Virus record (IMG/VR): IMGVR_UViG_3300044977_000123
Span: 59,223-123,222 of that record
Direction: 5' to 3' (one strand)
From: a virus
DNA: 64,000 bases
Part shown: positions 1 to 49,692 of the stretch, one piece after another
Layout of the letters: the number at the start of each line of letters is the position of its first letter
How positions within the stretch are numbered: position 1 is the stretch's first letter
Program-made: the position numbers and the translations under genes
The notes under the pieces: model-generated
What the model saw: only the letters and a program-made list of their open reading frames with translations
Database searches by the model: none
What the model was told of the DNA's origin: nothing

Positions 1-51
1 AGCGGCTACTTCTTGGTGAATCACGCCGCAGGCCGACATTGATCTCGGGAG
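1..51 (+). ncRNA. 3' part of a Y RNA (first of a tandem pair; 5' end outside the window)
   Basis: Ends in ACATTGATCTCGGGA (36-50), matching the 3' Ro-binding strand ACCTTGATCTCGGGC (184-198) of the next Y RNA; GCGGC(2-6)/GCCGC(25-29) stem; no tRNA-like domain visible. Confidence 0.6.
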
Positions 52-61
52 GATATGCATC

Positions 62-203
62 GGGGGTGCCCGGTGCGACAGCAACGGGTTCATCAATGGG
101 TCGCGGGTTCGAGTCCCGCCCGGTCGGCGCAAGCTGGCCGGTAGCTCAGGCGGTAGAGCAGTTGACTACAACTCCCGTCGCTGACCTTGATCTCGGGCAC
201 CCC
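62..203 (+). ncRNA. yrlA: YrlA-type Y RNA with circularly permuted tRNA-like domain
   Basis: Terminal stem GGGGTGCCCG/CGGGCACCCC with GGTGCGA...CTTGATC Ro-box; T arm GCGGG-TTCGAGT-CCCGC (103-119); acceptor-like stem 120-141 closed by GCAA; D arm GCTC-AGGCGGTA-GAGC (144-159); TCAAT(93-97)/GTTGA(161-165) anticodon-stem equivalent; directly upstream of Ro60. Confidence 0.9.
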
Positions 204-239
204 ACTGCATGTCTTCCCCTCCACGTGAGGGGTTTTGCT

Positions 240-1940
240 TTGTCCCGCTTCAACACCCGGACCGCCCGTCCGTCCGGCATATCGCCCGTGACCACGACCG
301 GGCAGACCGTCACCACCCACGAGGGCGGCACCGGCTTCCTCCGCGACGAGAAGAGCGAGCTGTTCCTCCTCGCGGTGGCGAACTTCGTCGGCCAGGACAC
401 CTTCTACGAGCAGGGCGGCCAGCGCGACGACCGCTACACCCAGCTCGTCCGGCAGCTCGCCGTCGCCGACCCTGAGTGGACCGCTGGACTGCTCGGCTGG
501 CTCCGCGCCGACGGCAACATGCGCACCGCATCGCTCGTCGGCGCGGCCGAGTACGTCAAGGCCCGTCTCGACGCCGCAGGCAGCCGCGAGCGCCGCATCC
601 ACGAGCAGGGGGCCGACAAGGCCGCGACCGTATGGTCCGGCGACAGCCTCGACTACTCCGCCGCCGCGAACCGTCGCGTCATCGCCTCCGTCCTGCAGCG
701 CCCGGACGAGCCCGGCGAGCTGCTGGCCTACTGGACGTCCCGCTACGGCCGGAACCTCCCGAAGCCCGTGAAGCGCGGTGTCGCCGACGCTGTCCAGCGG
801 CTGTACAACGAGAGGAGCCTCCTCAAGTACGACACCGACTCGAAGGGCTACCGGTTCGGCGACGTCCTCGAGCTCGTCCACGCCTCGCCCGCAAAGCCCT
901 ACCAGCACGACCTGTTCAAGCACGCCATCGACCGGCGCCATAAGCGCGACAACCCGATCCCCGACGGGCTGCGGATCGTTCGCAGCCGCGAGGAGCTCTT
1001 CAGCCTGCCCGTCAAGGCCCGGCGCGCCGTACTGGAGTCGGCGCAGGGCATGGAGCGGCTCGCGGACGCTGGTGTCAACTGGGAGGCACTGGCGGGCTGG
1101 CTCCAGGGCCCGATGGACCAGGAGGCGTGGAAGGCAGTCATCCCGTCCATGGGCTACATGGCGCTCCTGCGGAACCTGAGGAACTTCGACCAGGCCGGCG
1201 TGTCCGACAGCGTCGCGCAGCAGGTCGCAGCGAAGCTCGCCGACCCGGAGCAGGTCGCCCGCTCCCGGCAACTGCCGATGCGGTTCTACTCGGCGTACCG
1301 GGCTGCGCCGTCGCTGCGCTGGTCATGGGCGCTGGAGCAGGCGCTCGGGCATTCGCTCGCGAACATCAACCGGCTGCCCGGCCGGACCCTGGTCCTGGTC
1401 GACACGTCCGGGTCGATGCACGCCGGGTTCAGCAAGGACGGCACGGTGATGCGCTGGGACGCGGCGGTCGTGTTCGGGATCGCCCTCGGGTACCGGTGCG
1501 CGCAGGCCGATGTGGTGTCGTTCTCCGACGCCGGCTACGGCTACGGCTGGAATTCGCGCGGCAACAGCGACGCGAGCCGACCGTTCGCGCTCACGCCCGG
1601 AGGCTCGGTCCTCGCGGAGGTCAAGCGCTGGAACGACGACGGCTACTTCATCGGCGGCGGCACCGACACTGCTGGCGCGGTCCAGCGGCACTTCGCCGGG
1701 CACGACCGGGTCGTGATCCTCACCGATGAGCAGGCCAACAGCAACGGCTCCGTCGACCGGGCGGTCCCGGCGAACGTGCCGATGTACACCTGGAACCTCG
1801 CGGGTTACCGGGCTGGCCACGCGCCGTCCGGGAGTCGCAACCGGCACACGTTCGGCGGGCTCACCGATGCGGCCTTCCGCATGGTGCCGCTGCTGGAGGC
1901 TGGGGCGAACGCCACCTGGCCCTGGCTCCAGTCCGCCTGA
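240..1940 (+). CDS. rsr: Ro60/TROVE domain RNA-binding protein with C-terminal vWA domain
   Basis: TROVE-type motifs (ELFLLAVANFVGQDTFYE, MGYMALLRNLRN), MIDAS DTSGSM, ILTDEQ; TTG start at 240 after GAGGGG gives MSRFNTR; the longer ORF from 39 runs through the Y RNA. Confidence 0.93.
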   Translation: MSRFNTRTARPSGISPVTTTGQTVTTHEGGTGFLRDEKSELFLLAVANFVGQDTFYEQGGQRDDRYTQLVRQLAVADPEWTAGLLGWLRADGNMRTASLVGAAEYVKARLDAAGSRERRIHEQGADKAATVWSGDSLDYSAAANRRVIASVLQRPDEPGELLAYWTSRYGRNLPKPVKRGVADAVQRLYNERSLLKYDTDSKGYRFGDVLELVHASPAKPYQHDLFKHAIDRRHKRDNPIPDGLRIVRSREELFSLPVKARRAVLESAQGMERLADAGVNWEALAGWLQGPMDQEAWKAVIPSMGYMALLRNLRNFDQAGVSDSVAQQVAAKLADPEQVARSRQLPMRFYSAYRAAPSLRWSWALEQALGHSLANINRLPGRTLVLVDTSGSMHAGFSKDGTVMRWDAAVVFGIALGYRCAQADVVSFSDAGYGYGWNSRGNSDASRPFALTPGGSVLAEVKRWNDDGYFIGGGTDTAGAVQRHFAGHDRVVILTDEQANSNGSVDRAVPANVPMYTWNLAGYRAGHAPSGSRNRHTFGGLTDAAFRMVPLLEAGANATWPWLQSA

Positions 1941-35913: not shown

Positions 35914-36315
35914 GTGCCGGATGGGGTCACTCCTGGCGAGTTGGACCGCAGGCTCCGTGATCACGAGCAGCGTACGGACCGGGTGCACGGCGAGTTGGAT
36001 TCGCGGATCACGGGTGTGGCCCGCGACATGGTGCCGCTCGCGGTGTACCAGACGGCGGAGCGGGCGCGGGATGCGCAGCTGCGCCGGATCGAGCAGGAGC
36101 AGGCGGCGACTGCCTCGCGGCTGCAGCGGGAGATCGAGCAGAGCGTTCAGCACGTGGTCGACAACATGATCAAGCCGCTGGAGGTTCGCCAGACGGCGAC
36201 GGAGCAGCGGCCGTCGATGACAGCAGGCCGGTGGGCTGCGGTGATCCTCGCGGTCGCGGCGGTGCTGACGCTCGTGGTGACGGTGTACGGGACGCTGAAG
36301 GGGGCGGGTAAGTGA
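35914..36315 (+). CDS. Coiled-coil membrane protein (holin-like)
   Basis: C-terminal [21 protein letters not shown]; start of lysis cassette. Confidence 0.65.
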
Positions 36316-37058
36316 CGATCCCTGATGCCGTCAGGCCGAGGAAGCCGCGGCGGGAGACTCTCGCGATCGGGGGCAGCCTGGTCCTGCTGCTGCTCCTGGT
36401 GGGTGTGACGATCTGGGCGCTGCGCGTGGCGTCGGATGCGGAGCATCGCGCGGAGGCGAGCCAGTCGGCTGATGCTGCGGCGATCAGCCAGCTGTCGACG
36501 GCTCTGGATCAGACGCGGACGCAGCTGCAGGAGCATGGCGTGACGCCGAAGGCACCACCCCCGGCGACGATCATCCAGGCGATTCCGGGGGCTGCGGGCG
36601 CGGTCGGGCCTGCGGGTCCGGCGGGGAGTCCAGGCGCGGCTGGGGCGACAGGTCCCGTCGGGCCTGCGGGCGTCCAGGGCAAGACCGGGGCCACCGGCGC
36701 GACCGGCTCGACGGGTGCCACTGGGGCAACGGGCTTGGCCGGCGCCACGGGCCCCGTGGGGCCGGCTGGCGCGACTGGCGCTCAGGGCCCGTCCGGCACA
36801 CCGGGATCCCAGGGGCCCGCGGGTCCGCCTCCGTCGTCGTGGACGTGGTCCTGGACGGATTCGTCGGGCACGACGCACACGTACGCCTGCACGCAGACCG
36901 CGTCGGGTGCGACGACGTACAGCTGCACGGAGACCGGGACGTCCACGCCGTCGTCGCCGCCGAGCCCCAGTCCGTCACCGTCGCCGTCCGCATCGACGGC
37001 GCCGGCGCAGCAGGCGGCGAAGCGCGGCAACACGATCGTCTCGACCGGCCCGAAGTAG
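36312..37058 (+). CDS. Membrane-anchored collagen-like protein
   Basis: N-terminal TM, coiled coil, 27 uninterrupted GXY triplets, two-Cys C-terminal domain. Confidence 0.85.
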
Positions 37059-39711: not shown

Positions 39712-39991
39712 CCCGGACCTCTACCGCGAGCGCGCCCATCTGGTCGCGCATCTTGCCGCGGTGTACCCGTCGGCGATCGGCGTGGATCCGTCGGAGCCGG
39801 ACTGGCCGGTGGTGTACATCTCGACGGAGGCGGGCCAGTTGAGTTGGCATATAGCCCCGGCCGACCTGCCGCTGTTCTCCCACGTCCCGCGCTCTGCTGA
39901 CGCGAAGTGGGATGGCCATTCGACCGAGCTGAAGTATCAGCGGCTGGACCGGCTGACCCGCACCATCGCAGCGAGAGGAGCGACGCCATGA
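39704..39991 (+). CDS. WDGH domain protein
   Basis: LYRER...GQLSWHI...WDGHST. Confidence 0.8.
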   Translation: MPDPDLYRERAHLVAHLAAVYPSAIGVDPSEPDWPVVYISTEAGQLSWHIAPADLPLFSHVPRSADAKWDGHSTELKYQRLDRLTRTIAARGATP

Positions 39992-40734
39992 GGCAGATGT
40001 TCGACTCGATCGACGCCTCGCAGATCCCGGCCGACGCGCAGATGGTCGCCGGCTACGTGAACGGCATCTATGCCTGGTCAGCTGCGGACTGGGCGCGGTT
40101 CCCGCATGCGGTGCACGTCACGGTGACGGTGAACGCGGGCGGCTCGGCGGACGTCCTGGACGTCGAGAACGGTGACGCGAGTCCGGCCGAGGCGCCGGGG
40201 TGGATTGCGGCGCATCCGAACGGCTCGATCTACTGCGACTCGTCGACGTGGCCCGCGGTGAGGGCGGCGTTCGGCTCCCGTCCGCTGCCGCCGTTCTGGA
40301 TCGCCAACTACAACGGTGACGCCTCGTCGATCCCGGCGGGCGCGGTGGCTGCCCAGTATGAGGACGCTGGCCCGTACGACCTGTCCGTCGTTGCTGACTA
40401 CTGGCCGGGCGTTGACCCGGCACCTTCTCCCTCGCCGCCGCCTGTTCCTTCGGAGGACATTGTGACCCCTGCAGATGCTCAGTTGTTCGTGTCGACGCTG
40501 ATGGCGACGAAGGTCGCGGAGGCGGGTGACCCGGCCCCGAATACGAGGACGGTGCTGGAGCTGTTCGCGTACCTGGACCAGCACTACCACGTCCTCGCGC
40601 AGCAGAACACAGCCCTGGCCGCGCAGGTGACTGCCTTGTCGGCGGCGCTGGCTGCGGTCGCGAAGGGCGAGACTGCGGTGGTGGAGGCGGCGGTGACGGC
40701 CGCGCTGAAGGCGGCCGGGCACGCGGCGGCGTAG
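39988..40734 (+). CDS. Endolysin, GH25-like glycoside hydrolase
   Basis: MFDS...AGY..G...LDVENGDA...IYC...WIANY...QY...DLS; Pro linker; amphipathic C-terminus. Confidence 0.75.
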   Translation: MRQMFDSIDASQIPADAQMVAGYVNGIYAWSAADWARFPHAVHVTVTVNAGGSADVLDVENGDASPAEAPGWIAAHPNGSIYCDSSTWPAVRAAFGSRPLPPFWIANYNGDASSIPAGAVAAQYEDAGPYDLSVVADYWPGVDPAPSPSPPPVPSEDIVTPADAQLFVSTLMATKVAEAGDPAPNTRTVLELFAYLDQHYHVLAQQNTALAAQVTALSAALAAVAKGETAVVEAAVTAALKAAGHAAA

Positions 40735-40744
40735 CCTGTTCCTG

Positions 40745-41345
40745 GGTGAGCTAGCCCACCGCGTGGACGCAGCGCCTTGGCCGGGCATGCTGCGGGTGCA
40801 GCCTCCAAGCGACCTGTCCGGTTTCCGCGCGCCGGAGTGGTCTTTCCCGTCACCGGATCCGGGGGTCGATGCCTCCCCGTGGCGCGAGCAGGTGGCCCGT
40901 CGTCTTCGGACGGCGGGCTGCGCTGTCTGCGACGTAGTCTGTTCCTGTCCGGCGGGACGAGGCAGATCACCTTGGCGCGCGAACGCTGGGCATGGTCTGC
41001 CGGGATCGTCGGGACCAGGCGACTGGACCCGCCGCCTTCGTGGCGGTTGTGGCACCCGGAGACTGTGAGCGCTCGGGCCGTCGCCTCTTCGGAGGCGGCG
41101 GCCCGTTCTGCTGTTTCTGCTGGTCGCCCAGCCTGCTGATCTGCGTAACCTGGCCCAGTCCTGCTGCCAATAGATGCGTCCGCGTCCCAGTTCACCGCTT
41201 CGGCTGGCCGTGACTGCTCGCGCCCTCGTAGGCTGGCGCTACTTCCTTCGGGCTGTGGGCACTGACTCCGTCCTGCACGTCGCGGTCGCCTGTTGGCGCA
41301 GGCCCGCATTGCCCCGTTCCTGCTTCGGCAGGGGCGGGGCCTTCT
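40745..41345 (+). ncRNA. Candidate large structured ncRNA (~550-600 nt), class unknown
   Basis: No credible ORF; five CTTCGG loops; long-range helices, e.g. 40881-40891/41214-41224 (perfect 11 bp); ends in terminator hairpin. Confidence 0.65.
41311..41345 (+). terminator. Terminator at end of late operon/ncRNA
   Basis: GCCCCGTTCCTGC-TTCG-GCAGGGGCGGGGC then CTTCT; between convergent units. Confidence 0.75.
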
Positions 41346-41346
41346 G

Positions 41347-41772
41347 TCATGCCTGGATGGCGCCGTGGTCCAAAGCTCCAGGCGTTCGCTCGTCCTGCGC
41401 GTTCCACGTGTTGCACCACAGGCACGCCCAGGCCAGGTTGGCGGGTGCGTTGCGGGCGTCTCCGGCCTGCTGGTCGACGTGTTCCAGGCTGCCTATTCTG
41501 CGGCCTACTGGTGCCCATGGTGCCGGACCTCCGGTGGCAGGGTTGGATGGGCGTCCTTCGACGGCTAGTGATCCGCAGTAGCAGCAGCGGCCTTTGGCTG
41601 CGGACATGATGGCCCAGACTTGGTCGGCGCTGACGCGGCCACCTCCTCGCCCTGGGCGCCCGGGGTAGCGGTTGGCGACCTTGGCTTTGCGGGCGCACCA
41701 TGCGAGGCGCTCGGTCTCGGTGGTGCGGCCGAGGTATTCGTCCCAGGTCATGTAGGCGGGCGTGGGCAGCAT
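41347..41772 (-). CDS. HNH endonuclease-like protein
   Basis: CCYCG...SLEHV...NAPANLAWACLWCN. Confidence 0.75.
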   Translation of the reverse strand: MLPTPAYMTWDEYLGRTTETERLAWCARKAKVANRYPGRPGRGGGRVSADQVWAIMSAAKGRCCYCGSLAVEGRPSNPATGGPAPWAPVGRRIGSLEHVDQQAGDARNAPANLAWACLWCNTWNAQDERTPGALDHGAIQA

Positions 41773-41858: not shown

Positions 41859-42287
41859 TCAGCTCGCAGGCTTCCCGCCCCACCCTTCGGCCCCGGCTTC
41901 CCGCTTGAGCGCCTCGTGCAGCACTTTCCACCCGCCGGACTTCAGTGCTTCGGCGACGGCGGGGTGGGCCCACAGTGCTTTCTGTGCGGCGTTCCGTTCT
42001 TCTTGGAGCCGCTCCAGCTCTGCCCGTTCCTCGGGGCTCCACTCGTTCCGGAGCGCGGCTTGCTCCTCATCCCAGGCGGGGAGGCCGCGCACGATCGGGT
42101 CGGGGTACTGCTGGGCTCGCTGGTCGCGCACCTGGTCGTGGTAGGCGGTGACGGCGCTCTGCGCGGCCTCGTAGGCGCGCTGCAGGTCGATCAGATCAGC
42201 GGAAAGTTCAAGGTCATCGGGCACGCGCGCGAGCCTAGAGCACAGGTCTGACACTGACGGTGCAGGCGCGGCGGTACCGCTGCTCAC
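41859..42287 (-). CDS. Helical hypothetical protein (start uncertain)
   Basis: DLIDLQRA...WSPEERAELERL...ALWAHP; coupled to Ku. Confidence 0.6.
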   Translation of the reverse strand: MSSGTAAPAPSVSDLCSRLARVPDDLELSADLIDLQRAYEAAQSAVTAYHDQVRDQRAQQYPDPIVRGLPAWDEEQAALRNEWSPEERAELERLQEERNAAQKALWAHPAVAEALKSGGWKVLHEALKREAGAEGWGGKPAS

Positions 42288-43288
42288 GCCGCCGACGTCC
42301 GCCGCTTCCCGCTGCCGACGAGCGCCTCGACGAGCTGCTCGCGGCTCATCTTCGACCGCCCCGGCACACCCGCCTCGGCCGCCTTCTCGTAGAGCTCGTG
42401 CTTGCTCAGCTGCTCGAGCTCGTCCCGTGTCGGCCCGCTGCGAATCGGCTGCACGACGACGTCCTGGCGGTCGGCGCCCTTGTCGGCCGGCACGTCTCCG
42501 GCGGTGCTGCGCTTCTGTTCGCCGAGGCTGCGCTGCAGTGCGGACATCAGGTCGAGCACGTTGGTGCTGTCCGGCGGCCCCTCGGCGCCGACGATCTCGC
42601 CGCCGGTCCGCTTGGCGTCGATGAGCTGCTGCACTCGGTCGCGGAACCCGTCCTGGTAGTCCTCGGGCTTCCAGCCGGTGGCGAGCATGTCGATGAGTTG
42701 CCGTGCCGCCTCGAGCTGGAGCGGGTCGACGGGGGCCAGTTCGGGCAGGTCGGGCAGTTCCTCGGCGGGGTCGCGGACCTCGTCGGCATAGTGGAGGGTG
42801 TGCAGCTCGAGGATGCCGTTCGCCGGCCTGATCGCCGCGAGGTATTCCTTGCCGCGCATCACGAACGAGGCGATCCCGACGCGCCCGGACTCCTCCATGG
42901 CCTCGAGCAGGAGCGCGTATGCCGCAGCGAACTCCTCGCCTTTCGGAGCCAGGTAGTAGCTGCTGTCGTAGTAGATCGGGTCTACCTCAGTGATGTCGAC
43001 GAACGCCGAGACTGTGATCGCCTTGGACTTGCCGGGCGCGATGTCGTCGAGCTCGCTGGGGTCGATGACGACGTACTGCTCGTCGCCGAGGTCGTAGCCC
43101 TTGACGATGTCCTGGAACGCGACTTCTTCGCCGGTGCGCTCGTTGACGCGCCGGTTCCGGACCCGGTCGCTGGTGCCGCGCTGGATCTGCCGGAACTGCA
43201 CGCCGTGGGACTCGGTGGCCGCGTACAGGGCGACGGGTACCGTGACCAGGCCGAAGGTCAAGACTCCGGTCCAGATGGGTCGGGCCAT
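42284..43288 (-). CDS. ku: Ku NHEJ DNA end-binding protein with C-terminal Rho-N-like domain
   Basis: MARPIWTGVLTFGLVTVPVALY, IVKGYD, YYDSSYYLAP, VLDLMSALQRSL; GRSKMSREQL. Confidence 0.95.
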   Translation of the reverse strand: MARPIWTGVLTFGLVTVPVALYAATESHGVQFRQIQRGTSDRVRNRRVNERTGEEVAFQDIVKGYDLGDEQYVVIDPSELDDIAPGKSKAITVSAFVDITEVDPIYYDSSYYLAPKGEEFAAAYALLLEAMEESGRVGIASFVMRGKEYLAAIRPANGILELHTLHYADEVRDPAEELPDLPELAPVDPLQLEAARQLIDMLATGWKPEDYQDGFRDRVQQLIDAKRTGGEIVGAEGPPDSTNVLDLMSALQRSLGEQKRSTAGDVPADKGADRQDVVVQPIRSGPTRDELEQLSKHELYEKAAEAGVPGRSKMSREQLVEALVGSGKRRTSAA

Positions 43289-43374
43289 CGTCGCCTCCCT
43301 GCCGCCGGTCTCACCAGCATGCGGGAGGCCCGGCATGATCACATCTGGGGCGCGGGCCTCCCGGCGCAGAGGCC

Positions 43375-43983
43375 CTACTGCCCGACGGCCGCGATCGGCG
43401 GGTTCTCCAGTCGCCGCGCTATCACCCATTCCTCGTCGCCCCGGCGGCACACGATCCGCAGCCTAATCGGCTGGCCGGCGTAGTTCTCCTGCCACCTGTC
43501 GCGGGTCGTGCCCTCCATCCAGAATCCGGGCATGGTTCGCTCCATCGACAGCGGCCTGCCTCTGCCGACCTGAATGTGGAACGGCCCGACGGTGCGCCCG
43601 TTGGCGTCGCCCTGGTTGCCGCTCGGGGTGAAGCGGAACGGGCCCCAGACGTGGGCGTCGATCTTTTCCTGTGTGAGACCGGGCTCCGGGGTGCGGAGGG
43701 TGTGGTCCATGTCGTCGTCCTCGACGGTGAGGGTGACCTCGTCGAGGTGGCCGAGGATGTCGGGGCCGTTGAGGTAGATGTGGACCTTTGCCTGGCTGAG
43801 TCCTTCGCGCAGGTCGATGTCGAACTGGGGTGTGAGGTCGGCGTGCCACCGGTCGCGTTCGATCTTCGCCATTGAGTCGGCGGTGGCGTTCGAGCGGCGG
43901 GCAGCCATCCATGCGCCGCCGGTCGCGGTCGCAGCGAGGAACGTTGAGACGGCGGTCAGGGCGTCAGCCCAGGTGGTGGTCAT
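43375..43983 (-). CDS. N-terminally anchored membrane protein (moron-like)
   Basis: Hydrophobic N-terminus then ARRSNATA...ERDRWH...P. Confidence 0.65.
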   Translation of the reverse strand: MTTTWADALTAVSTFLAATATGGAWMAARRSNATADSMAKIERDRWHADLTPQFDIDLREGLSQAKVHIYLNGPDILGHLDEVTLTVEDDDMDHTLRTPEPGLTQEKIDAHVWGPFRFTPSGNQGDANGRTVGPFHIQVGRGRPLSMERTMPGFWMEGTTRDRWQENYAGQPIRLRIVCRRGDEEWVIARRLENPPIAAVGQ

Positions 43984-46092: not shown

Positions 46093-46526
46093 CGCCCCTG
46101 GCGGTCACCCCGAACGCGACGTGGCTGCTGAACCCGCAATCGCGCCAGCCGCTCCTGTCCAGGATGCTGCTCCTCGCCGCCGGTTACGCCTGGGATGCCG
46201 TCCGCACGCCGGAGCAGCTCGGCCTCGCGACCGCCGAACGCCTCCTCGCCGACGCCCACGACCGCACGCAGCTCGGCCCGGTCCTGCACTCCCGGCGCTC
46301 CGGCTGCCTGTACTGGATCATCCGGCCCGGCTCGACGGCCGACTACCCCGACGGCTGCCGGCTTCTCAGCGCCACCTACTGGATCGCCGTACCCGGCGAC
46401 CGTGCCGTCCCACCCGACACCGTCCGCTGGCTCCACCTGCCCACGGCGGGCGTACTCACCCCGGCCGCATGGCTCGCCGCCGCACTCCACGACACCCACA
46501 CCACACTCCCGGGAGGGACCCGATGA
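46089..46526 (+). CDS. Prim-pol-like small protein (paralog 2)
   Basis: AWDAVRT...GPVL...YWIIRPG...WIAVPG...RWLHLP. Confidence 0.7.
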   Translation: MTPLAVTPNATWLLNPQSRQPLLSRMLLLAAGYAWDAVRTPEQLGLATAERLLADAHDRTQLGPVLHSRRSGCLYWIIRPGSTADYPDGCRLLSATYWIAVPGDRAVPPDTVRWLHLPTAGVLTPAAWLAAALHDTHTTLPGGTR

Positions 46527-46720
46527 AGCAGCACCCCGACGACACGGCGGCACTCGACGCCATCGAGTGGCTGAACGGCCACCAGTGCACCTCCTGCCGG
46601 AGGGCACGGCCGACAGCGGTCCACATTGGCATGTGCCGCGGCTGCCTCGAACACGCGCTGTACCTCGACCGGGGCTGCGGAATGCCGCAGCGGATCCTCA
46701 GAGTCGGGGCACGCCGATGA
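46523..46720 (+). CDS. Small Zn-finger protein
   Basis: CTSC...CRGC; ATGA coupling. Confidence 0.55.
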   Translation: MKQHPDDTAALDAIEWLNGHQCTSCRRARPTAVHIGMCRGCLEHALYLDRGCGMPQRILRVGARR

Positions 46721-47091
46721 CCGAGCACACCGTTGCCGTCCGCGCCGGCACGCTGCCCGACACCATCGGAGCGCAGGTCCCCGGGAAGTTCGGCGATGCC
46801 GTCGGCGACCTCCGCCACGCTTGGACCGCCGTCCAGCGCCTCGCCGGGGACGTTGATGCGACCCTGCAGACCGCCGTCGTCTGCACCGGCACCAGCTGGG
46901 CCGAGGCCACCGCTGCGGTCGCCGAGTTCACCGCGGCCGCCGGAACGGTCGAAATCCATGCCATGGCGTCAGCTCGAGCTCCCGGGCCCGTTACCGAGAC
47001 GTGGGCATATCAGGTGACGCTGTACGTCACGTACCTCGATGCTCGCGGTGAGGGTGCGGCTGTGGGGCATCACGCGGACGGGCGGCAGTGA
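46717..47091 (+). CDS. Hypothetical protein
   Basis: ATGA coupling. Confidence 0.5.
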   Translation: MTEHTVAVRAGTLPDTIGAQVPGKFGDAVGDLRHAWTAVQRLAGDVDATLQTAVVCTGTSWAEATAAVAEFTAAAGTVEIHAMASARAPGPVTETWAYQVTLYVTYLDARGEGAAVGHHADGRQ

Positions 47092-47196
47092 ACGAGGCGT
47101 CAGGAGGCAGGCTTGGCAGCACAGTGGGGGGCGCACCGTGACGGCGCGCGCGACGCCCGTGCACGCCGGTGCGCCACCCGGTGCAGACGTGCGAGA

Positions 47197-47499
47197 TTAG
47201 ACGTCGGGATGATGGGGAACTGCATCCTCACCATCGGCTATGAACTGAGGCCAGTCCGAGGTGAACAGCCAGTGCAGCGGAACGCGGAGGCCGCGCGCGA
47301 GCAGGATGTACGTGTCGATGCCTGTGTCCGCCGCGCCGTTCTCGACGCGGCTGATTTGGACGGCGTGGACGCCGGTGGCTTCGGCCAGCGACTCCTGGCC
47401 GAGCTTGCGCCAGTCGCGGAGGCTGCGGATGTTGCGGCCGACCGCCACTCGCTCCGGCATGGAGTTCGGGTCGACCGGCGGGATTGGATCTTTAGCCAC
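47197..47499 (-). CDS. XRE-family HTH regulator
   Basis: IRSLRDWRKLGQESLAEATGV...ISRVENG...LARGLRVPL. Confidence 0.85.
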   Translation of the reverse strand: MAKDPIPPVDPNSMPERVAVGRNIRSLRDWRKLGQESLAEATGVHAVQISRVENGAADTGIDTYILLARGLRVPLHWLFTSDWPQFIADGEDAVPHHPDV

Positions 47500-47828
47500 A
47501 CAGTAAAGCTGGAGGTGGGAGCGGTGATAGTCCCTAACGGATTCGTTAAGCTTCCCGGCTGAGCAGGGTTGATAGATGGCTCCGACACCGATAGATTCGC
47601 ACGCGTGATCGAGTTACTGGTCGTTAACGTGGTTCCCAGCGCACCCTGACCCCTCAAGCGAGCGTCCGCAAGGCGCCGGCCACGCGATCATCTGCGCCCC
47701 GTCACGGTCGGACATCCATCGACAGAAATCGTCCAACGATCAACCATGCGCATGTCTACGCCATTGGCATATGCCGATCCTGACACCAACAACCCTCTGC
47801 ACACCGCCCAGCACCGGAGCACCGAACC

Positions 47829-48059
47829 GTGAACGACGACCACACAGACCGCCGTGGGAACGACACGTACATCGCGCACCCGGCACTGGAACGCGAACAC
47901 CTCACACGAATCGCCATGGCAGAGAACATTCTCCGCAACGCCCTTGAGCTCGACCTAGCAGTTGCCAGCCCGGCCACCCTCGCCATCACCTGCGAGGAGC
48001 TGCGCGGTCTCTGTCGCGACCTCCTGCGCCTCGTCCGCGACCACCACCCCGAGGCATAA
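47829..48059 (+). CDS. Small helical hypothetical protein
   Basis: GGAG RBS, GC3 bias. Confidence 0.55.
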   Translation: MNDDHTDRRGNDTYIAHPALEREHLTRIAMAENILRNALELDLAVASPATLAITCEELRGLCRDLLRLVRDHHPEA

Positions 48060-48093
48060 CCCCCATCACCTGCGATTTTTCAGCTCCCCAACA

Positions 48094-48141
48094 TGTGCTC
48101 AAAAGAAAACGGGAACCAGTCCCCGTTTTCTAAAGAGCACA
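48094..48141. other. Putative attP site of the serine integrase
   Basis: 48-bp AT-rich imperfect palindrome TGTGCTC-AAA-AGAAAACGGG-AAC-CA-GTC-CCCGTTTTCT-AAA-GAGCACA, central CA at 48117-48118, 33 bp before int. Confidence 0.7.
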
Positions 48142-48174
48142 CCCAGCGGCCCGGTTCCGCCTACCGTTGATCCC

Positions 48175-49692
48175 ATGGCCACCGCACCAATCGACACCCC
48201 CGCCAGCGAAGCCCTCGCGCTCCGCTCAGCCCTCTACGGCCGCGCGTCGAGCGACCCCAAGAAGCGCGGACGATCCATCAAAGACCAGTTCGCCGAAGGC
48301 GAGCTGGAATGCGAAGACCGCGGCTGGACCATCGTCGACCGCTACGAAGACCGTGACCGATCGGCGTCCCGATCAGCGCGGAGAGTTCGCGAAGACTACA
48401 CGCGCATGGTCGCCGACATGGAAGCCGGCCTCATGGACGTCATCGTCTATGCAGAACGGTCCCGTGCCAACCGCGACATGGACCACGCCATCAAGCTCCG
48501 CAAGCTGTGCGAGCGCACCAGCGTGCTGCTCTGCTACGGCGGACGCGTCTACAACATGCACAACCCCACGGACCGCAGGGACTTCACCCGGGACTCCGTG
48601 GCGTCCGAGGAGGAATCCGAGGCAATCAGGGAGCGAGCCCTGCGCACCGCCCGCCTCAATGCCAAGCGTGGCGCGCCCCACGGGCGAGTCCCCTTCGGCT
48701 ATGCGCGCAGGTACGACCCCGACGAGGGCCATCTACTCGGGCAGGTCCCTCACCCTGATCACGCAAAGGTCGTTCGCGACCTGTTCACGCGCGCCGCGGC
48801 ACGCGAGTCATTCGTCGCGCTCACGGCCGACCTCGCGAAGTACATCCCCGATACCAGCCGCTACGGGCTCCGATACATCCTTCGCAACAAGGCGTACATC
48901 GGCATCCGCATGCACAACGGCGCCGAGTCGAAGGCGGCCTGGGACGCGATCGTCCCCGAGGAGCTCTTCTGGCGGGTGCAGGCGGTCCTAGCCGAACCCG
49001 AGCGGCGTACCGTGCAGTCGAACGAGGTCACGCATTTGTTGTCCGGCATCGCCCCGTGCGAGGCGTGCCTGGGCGACGGCGCCGCCGAACCCGGATTGGT
49101 CATCAACAGGCCGCGGCACTATCCGCGTCCGTGCTACCGCTGCCCGCGCGGACATGTTCAGGTCGCGGCGGAGCGCCTGGACGCCTACGTGGAGGAGGCC
49201 TTGTTCGTGTGGTTCGGGACACCGGCCGCGGCCCTGGCGTTCCAGGCTCCTGACGGCGGTGAGCTGGAGGCGGCGCGCGCCCGGCTGGCAGCGCTGACTT
49301 TCCAGCTGGGTGAGGCGCGGGAGTTGGCCGGCCAGTTCCATCCGGTGACGTTTCAGCCCAAGCTGCCTGCTGCGTCCCTTGCGGTGATCGAGGCCCAGGT
49401 GGGTCCGGCTGTTGAGGCGGCCGAGGCGGAGGTTCGCCGGCTGACGGCTGTGGGCGACCCGGCGATCGGGCGGCTCATGAGTGCGGGCCCTGAGCGTCGT
49501 GCGGAGGCGTGGGAGCGTCTGACGATGGCTCAGCGCCGCCATGTGGTGCGGTGCTGTGTCAATGTCCGGCTGCGCCCTGCGGCGGTGAAGGGGTCGCGCC
49601 GGTTGGACAGCGATCGGGTGCGCCTGGTTTTTGCGGGGCAGCCGGGGTTCGCGGGTCGGCCCTCGCGCAGGAGGCTGGTGGGTTTGCCTTAG
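48175..49692 (+). CDS. int: Large serine integrase
   Basis: YGRASS catalytic motif, D...SAS...R..Y..M, PFGY, LRNKAYIG, HLLSGIAPCEAC...YRC..GH Zn ribbon, coiled coil. Confidence 0.95.
   Translation: MATAPIDTPASEALALRSALYGRASSDPKKRGRSIKDQFAEGELECEDRGWTIVDRYEDRDRSASRSARRVREDYTRMVADMEAGLMDVIVYAERSRANRDMDHAIKLRKLCERTSVLLCYGGRVYNMHNPTDRRDFTRDSVASEEESEAIRERALRTARLNAKRGAPHGRVPFGYARRYDPDEGHLLGQVPHPDHAKVVRDLFTRAAARESFVALTADLAKYIPDTSRYGLRYILRNKAYIGIRMHNGAESKAAWDAIVPEELFWRVQAVLAEPERRTVQSNEVTHLLSGIAPCEACLGDGAAEPGLVINRPRHYPRPCYRCPRGHVQVAAERLDAYVEEALFVWFGTPAAALAFQAPDGGELEAARARLAALTFQLGEARELAGQFHPVTFQPKLPAASLAVIEAQVGPAVEAAEAEVRRLTAVGDPAIGRLMSAGPERRAEAWERLTMAQRRHVVRCCVNVRLRPAAVKGSRRLDSDRVRLVFAGQPGFAGRPSRRRLVGLP

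What the first reader, a model, noticed from the sequence alone, without database searches (positions are those of the whole stretch)
40745..41345. Candidate novel large (~600 nt) multi-domain ncRNA after the endolysin
Seen: the largest gene-free stretch in the window. It has five cUUCGg motifs (40904, 41087, 41198, 41246, 41323; my rough estimate from base composition is under one by chance), three capping 12-14-bp stems. Nested long-range helices bring the ends together: 40791-40796/41303-41308, 40797-40801/41273-41277, 40833-40838/41265-41270, 40881-40891/41214-41224 (perfect 11 bp), 40985-40996/41148-41159 and 41018-41026/41120-41128. Two crossing helices, 40761-40771/41175-41185 and 40962-40969/41137-41144, imply pseudoknots or alternative folds. 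G-U pairs indicate the + strand, and it ends in a terminator. I see no hallmark of RNase P, tmRNA or group I/II introns. Known: phages carry large ornate RNAs of unclear function (GOLLD, ROOL). Inference: a late-expressed RNA of that kind, possibly a new class, in a phage that also encodes Ro60/Y RNA and an RNA ligase.
Basis: partly seen in the sequence, partly recalled or inferred. Interest (0 to 1): 0.8.

Follow-up and report, generated by a model that had tools for sequence, protein, structure and literature searches.

The report
Terminator-rich spacer hiding a small conserved RNA
The 600-base gene-free stretch is not one giant folded RNA but a spacer with three terminator-type hairpins, and inside it sits a roughly 70-base three-armed RNA that recurs in other soil actinobacterial phages and genomes and matches no catalogued RNA family.

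Summary
Observation partly confirmed. Window 40735-41346 is non-coding and lies between a lysin-like + gene and an HNH-like - gene. It holds five cUUCGg on the + strand. Three cap perfect 13-14-bp stems, the only such stems in the 123-kb record.

The ~600-nt multi-domain RNA reading is not supported. All excess folding energy sits in the three hairpins. With the hairpins kept and the rest shuffled, z = -0.72, and 14 of 60 shuffles fold as well. Long-range helices occur at chance frequency. The closest relative has no such spacer.

The hairpins resemble the terminators that follow lysis genes in relatives.

New: 40995-41063 is a conserved three-way-junction RNA with a GNRA loop, followed by hairpin 2. 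A covariance model found 16 distinct copies: phage contigs (twice just after a holin gene), a mobile-element-like locus and chromosomes. 11 of 23 pairs show two-sided changes and 97.8% of cells pair. No Rfam 15 match.

Best reading: a small structured RNA cassette at the end of the lysis operon. Function unknown; no expression data.

The parts
39907..40734 (+). Lysin-like gene, last gene of the rightward late/lysis arm (context)
   Evidence: GC3 about 0.9. Translation. 426 homologues, some carrying GH25, PG_binding or Amidase_2 domains. No Pfam or PHROGs hit of its own.
40735..40888 (+). Spacer segment A; no detectable structure or conservation beyond near-identical soil contigs
   Evidence: Fold z +0.71. 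No blastn or nhmmer match in 127 lysin-relative loci. Contig scraps of 98-100% identity cover 40549-40797.
40889..40925 (+). Hairpin 1: 13-bp perfect stem capped by cUUCGg (40892-40904 with 40909-40921), terminator-type, weak U tail
   Evidence: -27.9 kcal/mol as + RNA against -17.4 as - RNA, z -4.2. Stem length.
40916..40947 (+). Second copy of a 32-nt direct repeat (first copy 40713-40744, across the lysin stop). Each copy contains a TAnnnT box (TAGCCT at 40732, TAGTCT at 40935) followed by GTTCCTG.
   Evidence: Repeat family D1, 75% identity, spacing 203. The 9-mer and 13-mer cores occur only at these two places in the 123-kb record. Reading it as a -10 box or terminator tail is my inference; the promoter scan found no + strand promoter here.
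40995..41063 (+). Conserved three-way-junction RNA. P1 (4+5 bp with a bulged G), a 3-4/1-nt internal loop, P1c (3 bp), P2 (3+4 bp around an A.A, GNRA loop GCGA at 41019-41022), P3 (4 bp).
   Evidence: Covariance model hits: 92.6 bits with R1 and 81.8 bits with R2 at 40989/40990-41068. 16-sequence alignment A7: 97.8% of cells paired, 11 of 23 pairs with two-sided change. Single copy in the record.
41074..41105 (+). Hairpin 2: 14-bp stem capped by cUUCGg, followed by a U-rich tail (41106-41120). Conserved terminator of the lysis operon and 3' end of the small RNA.
   Evidence: -33.1 kcal/mol, z -5.8. The tail is shared with the hairpin right after the lysin in L005 and after the motif in L146. 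A soil variant keeps the stem through a U-A to G-C change, a paired deletion and a C>U that gives G-U only on the + strand (one contig of depth 2).
41106..41310 (+). Spacer segment C, with two cUUCGg (41198, 41246) on 2-bp stems only; no conservation found
   Evidence: Fold z +0.20. Stem lengths. Only a 95%-identical soil contig covers 41166-41317.
41311..41340 (+). Hairpin 3: 13-bp stem capped by cUUCGg, 6 nt from the stop of the convergent gene; terminator shared by the two converging arms
   Evidence: -28.2 kcal/mol, z -4.95. The stem and tail resemble the canonical U-tailed terminators after the lysin in L007 (89% over 37 nt) and L054.
41347..41772 (-). Convergent HNH-like gene (context)
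   Evidence: Minus-strand GC3 periodicity. Weak PHROGs HNH hit, E 9e-4. No Pfam hit.

Best explanation
The 612-nt stretch is a composite intergenic spacer at the point where the rightward late/lysis arm meets leftward genes (HNH-like, Ku, then repressor-like HTH and serine integrase further on). It is not one RNA machine.

It contains three strong + strand hairpins with UUCG loops, of the kind that end lysis operons in related phages. Between hairpins 1 and 2 lies one real structured RNA: a ~70-nt three-way junction (40995-41063) that runs directly into hairpin 2 and its U-rich tail.

Most likely working (inferred). RNA polymerase coming from the lysis genes, or from a local promoter (a TAGTCT box lies 54 nt upstream), transcribes the junction and stops at hairpin 2. 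This gives a compact RNA of about 110-170 nt whose 3' end is protected by the terminator stem. The invariant nucleotides sit in the internal loop, the junction and the GNRA-capped arm, not in a single-stranded seed. The RNA is therefore more likely recognised by its shape (by a protein or a small ligand) than used for antisense pairing.

The cassette is accessory and mobile (moron-like). It is missing from the nearest relative and is scattered among phages, a mobile-element-like locus and chromosomes.

Hairpins 1 and 3 act as extra terminators or 3'-end protectors that keep the converging transcription units apart.

Shown: non-coding status, the hairpins, conservation and covariation of the junction, and its repeated position before a strong hairpin and after lysis genes. 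Inferred: transcription, the RNA's ends, and any function.
For: Non-coding status and convergent flanks.

Hairpins. They are unique in the record and carry all the fold signal. In 127 lysin-relative loci (788 kb), the 8 cUUCGg hairpins with stems of 8 bp or more are all on the lysin strand and all downstream of the lysin match. Those in L054 and L007 have canonical U tails, and L005 shares the tail of hairpin 2.

Junction RNA.
- A blastn hit to a Streptantibioticus silvisoli prophage locus (L100; 74% over 81 nt, E 4e-7) has the same layout, junction then an 18-bp cUUCGg hairpin, after a Phage_holin_2 gene.
- Model R1 found 6 of 151 sampled genomes of that family.
- A degenerate pattern found 4 viral contigs and 2 metagenome contigs, one of them probably the same contig as a viral one (same length).
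- Model R2 found 7 of 151, 2 of 151 and 2 of 151 genomes in three samples.
- The 16 distinct sequences give 97.8% paired cells, 11 of 23 pairs with two-sided changes and 37 such cells. 0 of 500 shuffles reach this, and slid controls give 0-3 pairs.
- The P2 loop is GNRA in all 16 sequences (my reading of the alignment printed).
- U-G pairs in P1c (6 of 16) fit only the + strand.
- In L146 the junction again follows a Phage_holin_2 gene and precedes a cUUCGg hairpin with the same tail.
- By my reading of the folds, 10 of the 11 phage- or mobile-type copies have a strong hairpin starting within about 15 nt downstream.
- In L151 and L157 the flanks pair around the junction and end in a U tail. 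A-T-rich boxes (TTTACT-17-TATAAG; TAATAT) sit just upstream (read by eye).
- A near-identical soil variant has 5 changes in 261 nt: 4 upstream of the junction, 1 at the N of GNRA and none in a paired position.
- No Rfam match.
Against: No expression data exist. No RNA run holds the sequence, so transcription, ends and abundance are unproven.

The consensus scan found no sigma-70-type promoter upstream of the junction in the window, L150, L151 or L157. My promoter readings are by eye.

The same scan did not call hairpins 1 and 3 as terminators, because their U tails are poor. It caught only a sub-hairpin of hairpin 2.

Hairpin 1 stands between the lysin gene and the junction, so read-through from the lysis operon is not assured.

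Alignment A7 was fitted to the model, which biases pair counts towards the structure. The sequences are also related, so the shuffle control is not a probability.

Segments A and C (about 360 nt) remain unexplained. Thermodynamic z-scores cannot exclude a real but weakly stable fold.

The weakest members (L141, L154; 45-52 bits) break several P1 pairs.
Confidence: 0.62

Rival explanations
1. One reading: one late-expressed RNA of about 600 nt with nested long-range helices and pseudoknots, a new large ornate RNA class like GOLLD or ROOL.
For: The whole stretch folds better than full shuffles on the + strand (z -4.2, n=20). Five UUCG loops lie on one strand. The listed helices are complementary as stated, including a perfect 11-bp one. 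There is no Rfam match. Soil contig scraps of 95-100% identity show the spacer exists in related populations.
Against: The fold signal vanishes when the three hairpins are held constant (z -0.72; 14 of 60 shuffles as stable). The inter-hairpin segments have z near 0. Long-range helices occur at chance frequency. The minus strand gives nearly the same z (-3.8). The nearest relative has the lysin followed within about 80 nt by a minus-strand gene. Outside the junction and hairpins 2 and 3, no homologue was found in 127 related loci or in the loci that carry the junction. Two strong terminator-type hairpins lie inside the proposed RNA.
Confidence: 0.06
2. The junction is not a free small RNA but a cis-acting 3'-UTR element of the lysis (or upstream) mRNA. 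Together with the hairpin it sets termination efficiency or protects the message from 3' exonucleases, or it acts as a ligand- or protein-controlled terminator switch.
For: In L100 and L146 no terminator separates the holin stop from the junction (250 and 116 nt), and the junction runs straight into the operon terminator. In L147 it follows a Pterin_4a gene on the same strand. In L151 the terminator-like hairpin called by the scan reuses the 3' strand of P1, so the two folds would compete.
Against: In the window, hairpin 1 lies between the gene and the junction. L150 has a U-tailed terminator about 80 nt upstream of its junction, so that copy is insulated from upstream genes. L151 and L157 sit about 1 kb from the nearest same-strand gene, with A-T-rich boxes just upstream. 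Nothing lies downstream to regulate, since the next genes converge. The overlap between P1 and the terminator is not conserved across members.
Confidence: 0.25
3. The spacer is decayed or unrecognised coding sequence (small lysis or moron proteins, or a pseudogene), and the hairpins are ordinary terminators between former genes.
For: In the closest relative, + strand cUUCGg hairpins are interleaved with ~135-aa minus-strand genes, so gene loss could leave hairpins behind. A 241-aa minus-strand frame is open across most of the spacer.
Against: GC1/2/3 are flat in every spacer ORF. The translations are Arg/Pro/Ala-rich with no family hit. tblastx of the relative against the record gives nothing in the spacer at E<=1e-5. 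Junction homologues differ by indels that are not multiples of three.
Confidence: 0.04
4. A DNA-level element: attP or another recombination, replication or packaging site whose inverted repeats mimic RNA hairpins.
For: The position between the late arm and the lysogeny-type genes is where many temperate actinophages carry attP (general knowledge, recalled). A large serine recombinase is encoded in the window. The junction also occurs in host chromosomes.
Against: The recombinase gene is about 7 kb away (47962-49689). There is a strand bias: 5 of 5 UUCG in the spacer on the + strand, G-U pairs, and a C>U variant that pairs only as + RNA. Compensatory changes preserve pairing rather than sequence. 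Chromosomal copies sit in unrelated contexts.
Confidence: 0.03

Closest known systems
Intrinsic (factor-independent) terminators at the end of phage late/lysis operons, including tandem and bidirectional ones between convergent genes
   Same: G+C-rich perfect stems with a stable UUCG tetraloop sit directly after the last late gene or the convergent gene's stop. Hairpin 2 has a U-rich tail. Relatives have canonical U-tailed versions at the same place.
   Different: There are three of them spread over 600 nt. Hairpins 1 and 3 have poor U tails and were not called by the consensus scan. Termination was not measured.
Phage 'morons' and 3'-UTR-derived small RNAs (an autonomous cassette with its own terminator at the end of a late operon; concept recalled from the literature, not from a call)
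   Same: An accessory, sporadically distributed unit sits between the last lysis gene and the operon terminator. It is absent from the nearest relative, and some copies have their own A-T-rich upstream box and U-tailed stem.
   Different: The cargo is a structured RNA rather than a protein gene. The promoter is unproven.
GOLLD / ROOL large ornate RNAs (Rfam families; described in PMC5737381, passages seen, and a bioRxiv cryo-EM preprint, listing only)
   Same: Phage or prophage association and unknown function.
   Different: Those RNAs are 400-800 nt with many covarying helices and are often near tRNAs. Here only about 70 nt covary, there is no tRNA in the window, no Rfam hit, and long-range helices are at chance level.
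Small three-way-junction RNAs (purine, TPP and glycine aptamers, hammerhead ribozyme; consensus features recalled from memory)
   Same: Size (about 70 nt), three helices around a junction, and conserved junction or loop nucleotides. Many members are followed at once by a terminator hairpin, as in transcriptional riboswitches.
   Different: No Rfam model of any of these matches, even at E<=10. I saw no hammerhead core (CUGANGA...GAAA) in the junction strands (by eye). No downstream gene is available to regulate in the phage copies.
Bacterial and phage Y RNAs (YrlA) partnered with Ro60/Rsr
   Same: The same record encodes a TROVE/Ro60 protein, and earlier notes of this scan report Y RNAs beside it.
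   Different: The Ro60 gene is about 39 kb away. RF00019 finds nothing in the record at E<=10. The junction has no long terminal Ro-binding stem or tRNA-like arms (by eye).

Membership tests
Large ornate phage RNAs (GOLLD RF01998-type, ROOL) | Match to the family covariance model | tested here: not met
   No Rfam 15 family reaches its gathering score anywhere in the 64-kb window. At E<=10 in 40500-41600 there are only 7 junk hits (miRNA, TCV_Pr, PhotoRC-I and others), all far below their thresholds.
Large ornate phage RNAs (as a kind, not a family) | Many long-range helices that are conserved and covary over several hundred nucleotides | tested here: not met
   Hairpin-preserving shuffles give z -0.72. 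Helix counts are at chance level. Homology is limited to about 70-120 nt. The nearest relative lacks the spacer.
Intrinsic terminator | Stable G+C-rich stem-loop at the 3' end of a transcription unit | tested here: met
   Hairpins 1-3 have 13-14 bp and -27.9 to -33.1 kcal/mol. Hairpin 3 lies 6 nt from the convergent gene's stop. Hairpin 2 is orthologous in its tail to the post-lysin hairpin of L005.
Intrinsic terminator | U-rich tract directly after the stem | tested here: inconclusive
   The hairpin 2 tail is U-rich for a 69% G+C genome, and the scan caught only a sub-hairpin with it. Hairpins 1 and 3 were not called. Relatives L054 and L007 have clear U tracts.
Intrinsic terminator | Transcripts actually end there | not testable with these tools
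   No RNA run holds the sequence; only DNA contigs were laid.
New three-way-junction RNA motif (defined here) | Significant match to a covariance model built from independent homologues | tested here: met
   The window scores 81.8 bits (E 5e-13) with R2. The window is one of the 12 sequences R2 was built from, so this is partly circular. Members not used to build R2 score 45-78 bits (L150, L151, L154, L157).
New three-way-junction RNA motif (defined here) | Base pairs kept through compensatory change | tested here: met
   11 of 23 pairs, 37 cells and 97.8% paired. 0 of 500 shuffles reach this, and slid controls give 0-3 pairs. Caveats: the alignment was fitted to the model, and no phylogeny-aware test was run.
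Riboswitch (transcriptional) | Aptamer upstream of a gene whose expression it controls through a competing terminator or antiterminator | tested here: not met
   In the window, L100 and L146 the junction plus hairpin lie after the last gene, with convergent or unrelated genes beyond. A P1/terminator overlap was seen only in some members.
Y RNA / YrlA | Match to the Y_RNA model and adjacency to Ro60 | tested here: not met
   RF00019 has no match at E<=10 in the record. The TROVE gene lies at window 3-1940, about 39 kb away.

The most novel reading that the evidence does not exclude
The 40995-41063 junction defines a previously undescribed family of mobile small RNAs of actinobacterial phages, conjugative-type elements and chromosomes. 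It folds into a ligand- or protein-binding three-way junction (or a new self-processing RNA), is delivered with the lysis cassette, and serves in phage-host conflict or late-gene control. A bolder variant is that the unexplained flanks (segments A and C, with their own UUCG hairpins) are further lineage-specific RNA modules of the same cassette array.
Probability: 0.3. Interest if true: 0.65.

Novelty: new variant of a known kind. Interest (0 to 1): 0.45.

Why it matters
The claim as made, a new GOLLD/ROOL-like giant RNA, would have been striking but does not hold.

What remains is smaller but real: a candidate new structured-RNA family with compensatory base-pair changes, absent from Rfam 15. 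It is carried at the very end of the lysis cassette in at least three unrelated actinophage or prophage contexts, and it is also scattered through Streptomycetaceae-type genomes.

Few structured RNAs are known from high-G+C actinophages. A compact junction with invariant loop nucleotides is a direct target for in-line or SHAPE probing, pull-downs and deletion in a cultivable prophage host; the Streptantibioticus silvisoli record behind L100 is from a named strain.

The result also shows that UUCG-capped hairpins inflate fold z-scores in G+C-rich spacers, and that a hairpin-preserving null model removes the effect.

Tried and rejected
Rfam: whole window at gathering score, the region at E<=10, and 7 homologous loci at E<=0.1. 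Nothing usable.

tRNA/tmRNA scan of the window: 0 genes.

Named phages:
- blastn of the 701-nt region gave no match.
- tblastn of both flanking proteins gave no match.
- blastn of the junction plus hairpin from L146 and from the window gave only a 36-nt terminator-like hit in Streptomyces phage Ibantik and a 22-nt chance hit in Xanthomonas phiL7.

A strict junction pattern in viral contigs gave 0 hits. A looser pattern gave 4 viral and 2 metagenome hits.

Internal repeat idea (three homologous ~200-nt units). MAFFT of the three units gave 60% column identity with no convincing homology beyond a short box (CGTAG/CGTAA followed by a pyrimidine and CTG). Rejected as a tandem array. The short box is kept only as a possible -10 or tail element.

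Coding: Pfam and PHROGs on 5 spacer ORFs gave nothing.

Expression: no RNA holder is listed for the stretch, so expression could not be examined. The four best DNA holders gave only short contigs, which cannot test the long-range helices.

A DNA search of the L100 genome with the 145-nt junction stretch did not recover the L100 locus itself, only 5 weak hits. The covariance model did recover it.

Promoter scans around the junction in the window, L150, L151 and L157 found no sigma-70-type site.

Integrase: no tyrosine recombinase in the record. A serine recombinase lies about 7 kb away, so attP was rejected as unlikely.

Literature:
- Four full-text searches.
- Passages of PMC5737381 and PMC3765725.
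- None describes this junction or an RNA after actinophage lysis genes.
- Supplementary files, which for PMC5737381 list all 224 motifs, were not opened and could bear on novelty.

Earlier notes of this scan: a sequence look-up found nothing. The genome look-up listed notes on other parts of the record only.

Whether this is the largest gene-free stretch of the window was not settled.
Full report
WHERE IT IS.
The window is the last 64 kb of a 123,222-bp IMG/VR virus record (69% G+C, CheckV completeness 92%). Soil metagenomes hold near-identical fragments.

The finding lies between two converging genes:
- a + strand gene at 39907-40734 with GC3 about 0.9;
- a minus-strand gene at 41347-41772 with minus-strand codon periodicity.

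The + gene product has no Pfam or PHROGs hit. It has 426 homologues, some carrying GH25, PG-binding or amidase domains. In two relatives it sits in a cassette with a Phage_holin_2 gene. 'Lysin-like' is therefore fair, but 'endolysin' is not proven. The minus gene is weakly HNH-like (PHROGs E 9e-4).

Upstream are large late proteins. Downstream, on the minus strand, is a Ku homologue, followed by an HTH protein and a large serine recombinase. The spacer thus marks the boundary between the late/lysis arm and a lysogeny-type region.

CHECK OF THE OBSERVATION.
Three cap perfect stems of 13, 14 and 13 bp. Among the 151 CTTCGG of the whole record, no other has a stem of 9 bp or more.

The stretch is non-coding. 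Every ORF in it has flat GC1/2/3 (0.65-0.74), against GC3 0.80-0.91 and GC2 about 0.5 in real genes. The translations are low-complexity and match no family.

The + strand is preferred: each hairpin is 5-10 kcal/mol more stable as + RNA. No Rfam family matches.

THE LARGE-RNA READING FAILS ITS TESTS.
The full 612 nt fold with z -4.2 on the + strand, but also z -3.8 on the minus strand.
- Folded alone, the hairpins have z -4.2, -5.8 and -4.95.
- The three segments between them have z +0.71, -0.48 and +0.20.
- When the hairpins are kept and only the segments are shuffled, the native energy (-331.4) is ordinary: mean -326.6, z -0.72, with 14 of 60 shuffles as stable.

The eight long-range helices are complementary as listed. 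However, helices of that quality are expected in 612 nt of 70% G+C:
- Watson-Crick helices of 9 bp or more: 2 observed against 1.2 expected.
- A perfect 11-mer appears in 3 of 40 shuffles.
- G-U-tolerant helices of 11 bp or more: 10 observed against 7.5 expected.

The closest relative (L002 = L005; lysin 75% identical) has a 10-bp cUUCGg hairpin right after the lysin and then a minus-strand gene about 80 nt from the stop. It has no spacer. Thermodynamics cannot disprove a weakly stable fold, but nothing here supports one.

WHAT THE HAIRPINS ARE.
I collected 127 loci that encode relatives of the lysin-like protein (78 viral and 49 genomic; 788 kb). Hairpins with cUUCGg loops and stems of 8 bp or more occur 8 times. 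All 8 are on the lysin strand and downstream of the lysin match; two of them lie inside ORFs.

Those in L054 and L007 are textbook intrinsic terminators with U tracts. Their stems and tails resemble hairpin 3 (blastn 89% over 37 nt to L007). The tail after hairpin 2 recurs after the post-lysin hairpin of L005 and after the junction in L146. Hairpins 2 and 3 are therefore the lysis-arm terminators; hairpin 1 is a third of the same build.

A low-depth soil variant of hairpin 2 keeps the stem through three changes: U-A to G-C, a paired deletion, and a C>U that pairs only as + RNA (one contig, depth 2).

Against a strict terminator label, the consensus scan called none of the three full hairpins, because their U tails are imperfect.

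THE CONSERVED RNA INSIDE.
One blastn hit stood out: window 40995-41063 against L100 (a Streptantibioticus silvisoli contig), 74% over 81 nt, E 4e-7. The aligned part folds into a three-way junction:
- P1, 4+5 bp with a bulged G;
- an internal loop;
- a 3-bp P1c stacked on P2;
- P2, 3+4 bp around an A.A, with a GNRA loop;
- a short P3.

In both sequences a long cUUCGg hairpin follows within 0-10 nt. In L100 the gene upstream is a Phage_holin_2.

Searches with covariance models then widened the set:
- Model R1, built from the two sequences, found matches in 6 of 151 sampled genomes of that family.
- A degenerate pattern found 4 viral and 2 metagenome contigs.
- Model R2, built from 12 sequences, found 7 of 151, 2 of 151 (class sample) and 2 of 151 (another family) genomes, and one copy in the phage's own record.

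The final alignment has 16 distinct sequences.
- 97.8% of 361 cells form standard pairs.
- 11 of 23 pairs show changes on both sides (37 cells).
- The covariation score is 0.347 against 0.142 in shuffles; 0 of 500 shuffles reach it.
- Sliding the partners by 1-3 columns leaves 34-54% paired and 0-3 covarying pairs.
- The P2 loop is GNRA in all 16 (my reading).
- Six U-G pairs in P1c fit only the + strand.

Caveats: the alignment is model-fitted, the sequences are related, and the two weakest members break several P1 pairs.

None of these loci has an Rfam match.

CONTEXT OF THE FAMILY.
- After a holin: L100 and L146.
- After the lysin-like gene: the window.
- In an element with an FtsK/SpoIIIE-type protein, DUF6221 and HTH genes: L158.
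- Between ordinary chromosomal genes: L159 and L160.
- After a Pterin_4a gene: L147.
- Near a GmrSD-like gene: L138.

By my reading, ten of the eleven phage- or mobile-type copies are followed within about 15 nt by a strong hairpin. In L151 and L157 the flanks pair around the junction and end in a U tail, and A-T-rich hexamers sit just upstream. This looks like a self-contained ~95-nt gene, although the promoter scan called nothing. In L150 a U-tailed terminator lies about 80 nt upstream, which insulates that copy.

The nearest relative of this phage lacks the junction (no hit in L005 at E<=10). The sporadic distribution and this absence fit an accessory, mobile cassette.

HOW IT MOST LIKELY WORKS.
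Shown: a non-coding spacer; three terminator-type hairpins; and one conserved, covarying ~70-nt junction that runs into hairpin 2.

Inferred: the junction is transcribed from the lysis arm or from a local promoter. A TAGTCT box lies 54 nt upstream. It belongs to a 32-nt direct repeat whose other copy spans the lysin stop. Transcription ends at hairpin 2 and yields a compact RNA.

Conservation is concentrated in the internal loop, the junction and the GNRA arm. I therefore favour recognition by shape (a protein or ligand partner) over antisense action. This is a guess and no partner is known. The main rival is a cis-acting 3'-UTR role in termination or message stability.

Segments A (40735-40888) and C (41106-41310), including the two weak UUCG sites, remain unexplained.

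COMPARISON WITH KNOWN THINGS, AND NOVELTY.
It is not GOLLD or ROOL-like. Both membership features that I could test, a model match and extended covarying architecture, are not met.

The hairpins are ordinary in kind. The junction matches no Rfam 15 family. It was not found in the papers I could search or read, but supplements were not seen. It was also not found among named phages by blastn.

I class it as a new variant of a known kind: a small structured RNA cassette on mobile DNA. Interest is moderate.

Noticed in passing
window 3-1940 (+): A 645-aa open frame carries a TROVE (Ro60) domain (54.7 bits). The Rfam Y_RNA model finds nothing in the whole record at E<=10, although earlier notes of this scan describe Y-RNA-like units just upstream.
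   Followed up: partly
window 42284-43450 (-): A Ku70/Ku80 beta-barrel protein (E 5e-50) with a C-terminal Rho_N-like segment, two genes beyond the spacer on the leftward arm. A phage-encoded Ku is uncommon.
   Followed up: no
window 47962-49689 (+): A large serine recombinase (Resolvase + Recombinase domains). No tyrosine integrase was found in the record.
   Followed up: partly
window 36312-37055 (+): A collagen-triple-helix-repeat protein in the late arm, probably a tail fibre or decoration.
   Followed up: no
L139, L140, L143, L147, L154 (genome and viral loci): A subtype of the junction RNA is followed by a second conserved ~40-nt hairpin domain and preceded by a conserved (T)AGCAT box 13 nt upstream. 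In L147 it follows a Pterin_4a dehydratase gene, and the downstream genes differ between loci.
   Followed up: partly
L005 3927 and 4390 (= L002 4927 and 5390): In the closest relative, + strand cUUCGg hairpins with + strand U-rich tails are interleaved with minus-strand genes. They look oriented against read-through from the late arm rather than serving the genes beside them.
   Followed up: partly
window 46524-47958: About 1.4 kb in which my crude GC3 filter finds no gene, upstream of the recombinase. It may hold atypical genes or another non-coding region (possibly attP).
   Followed up: no
window, whole: CTTCGG is about twice as frequent as expected over the whole window (81 against 42.2 in shuffles), although almost all occurrences outside the spacer have stems of 4 bp or fewer. 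This is probably a codon or dinucleotide effect.
   Followed up: partly
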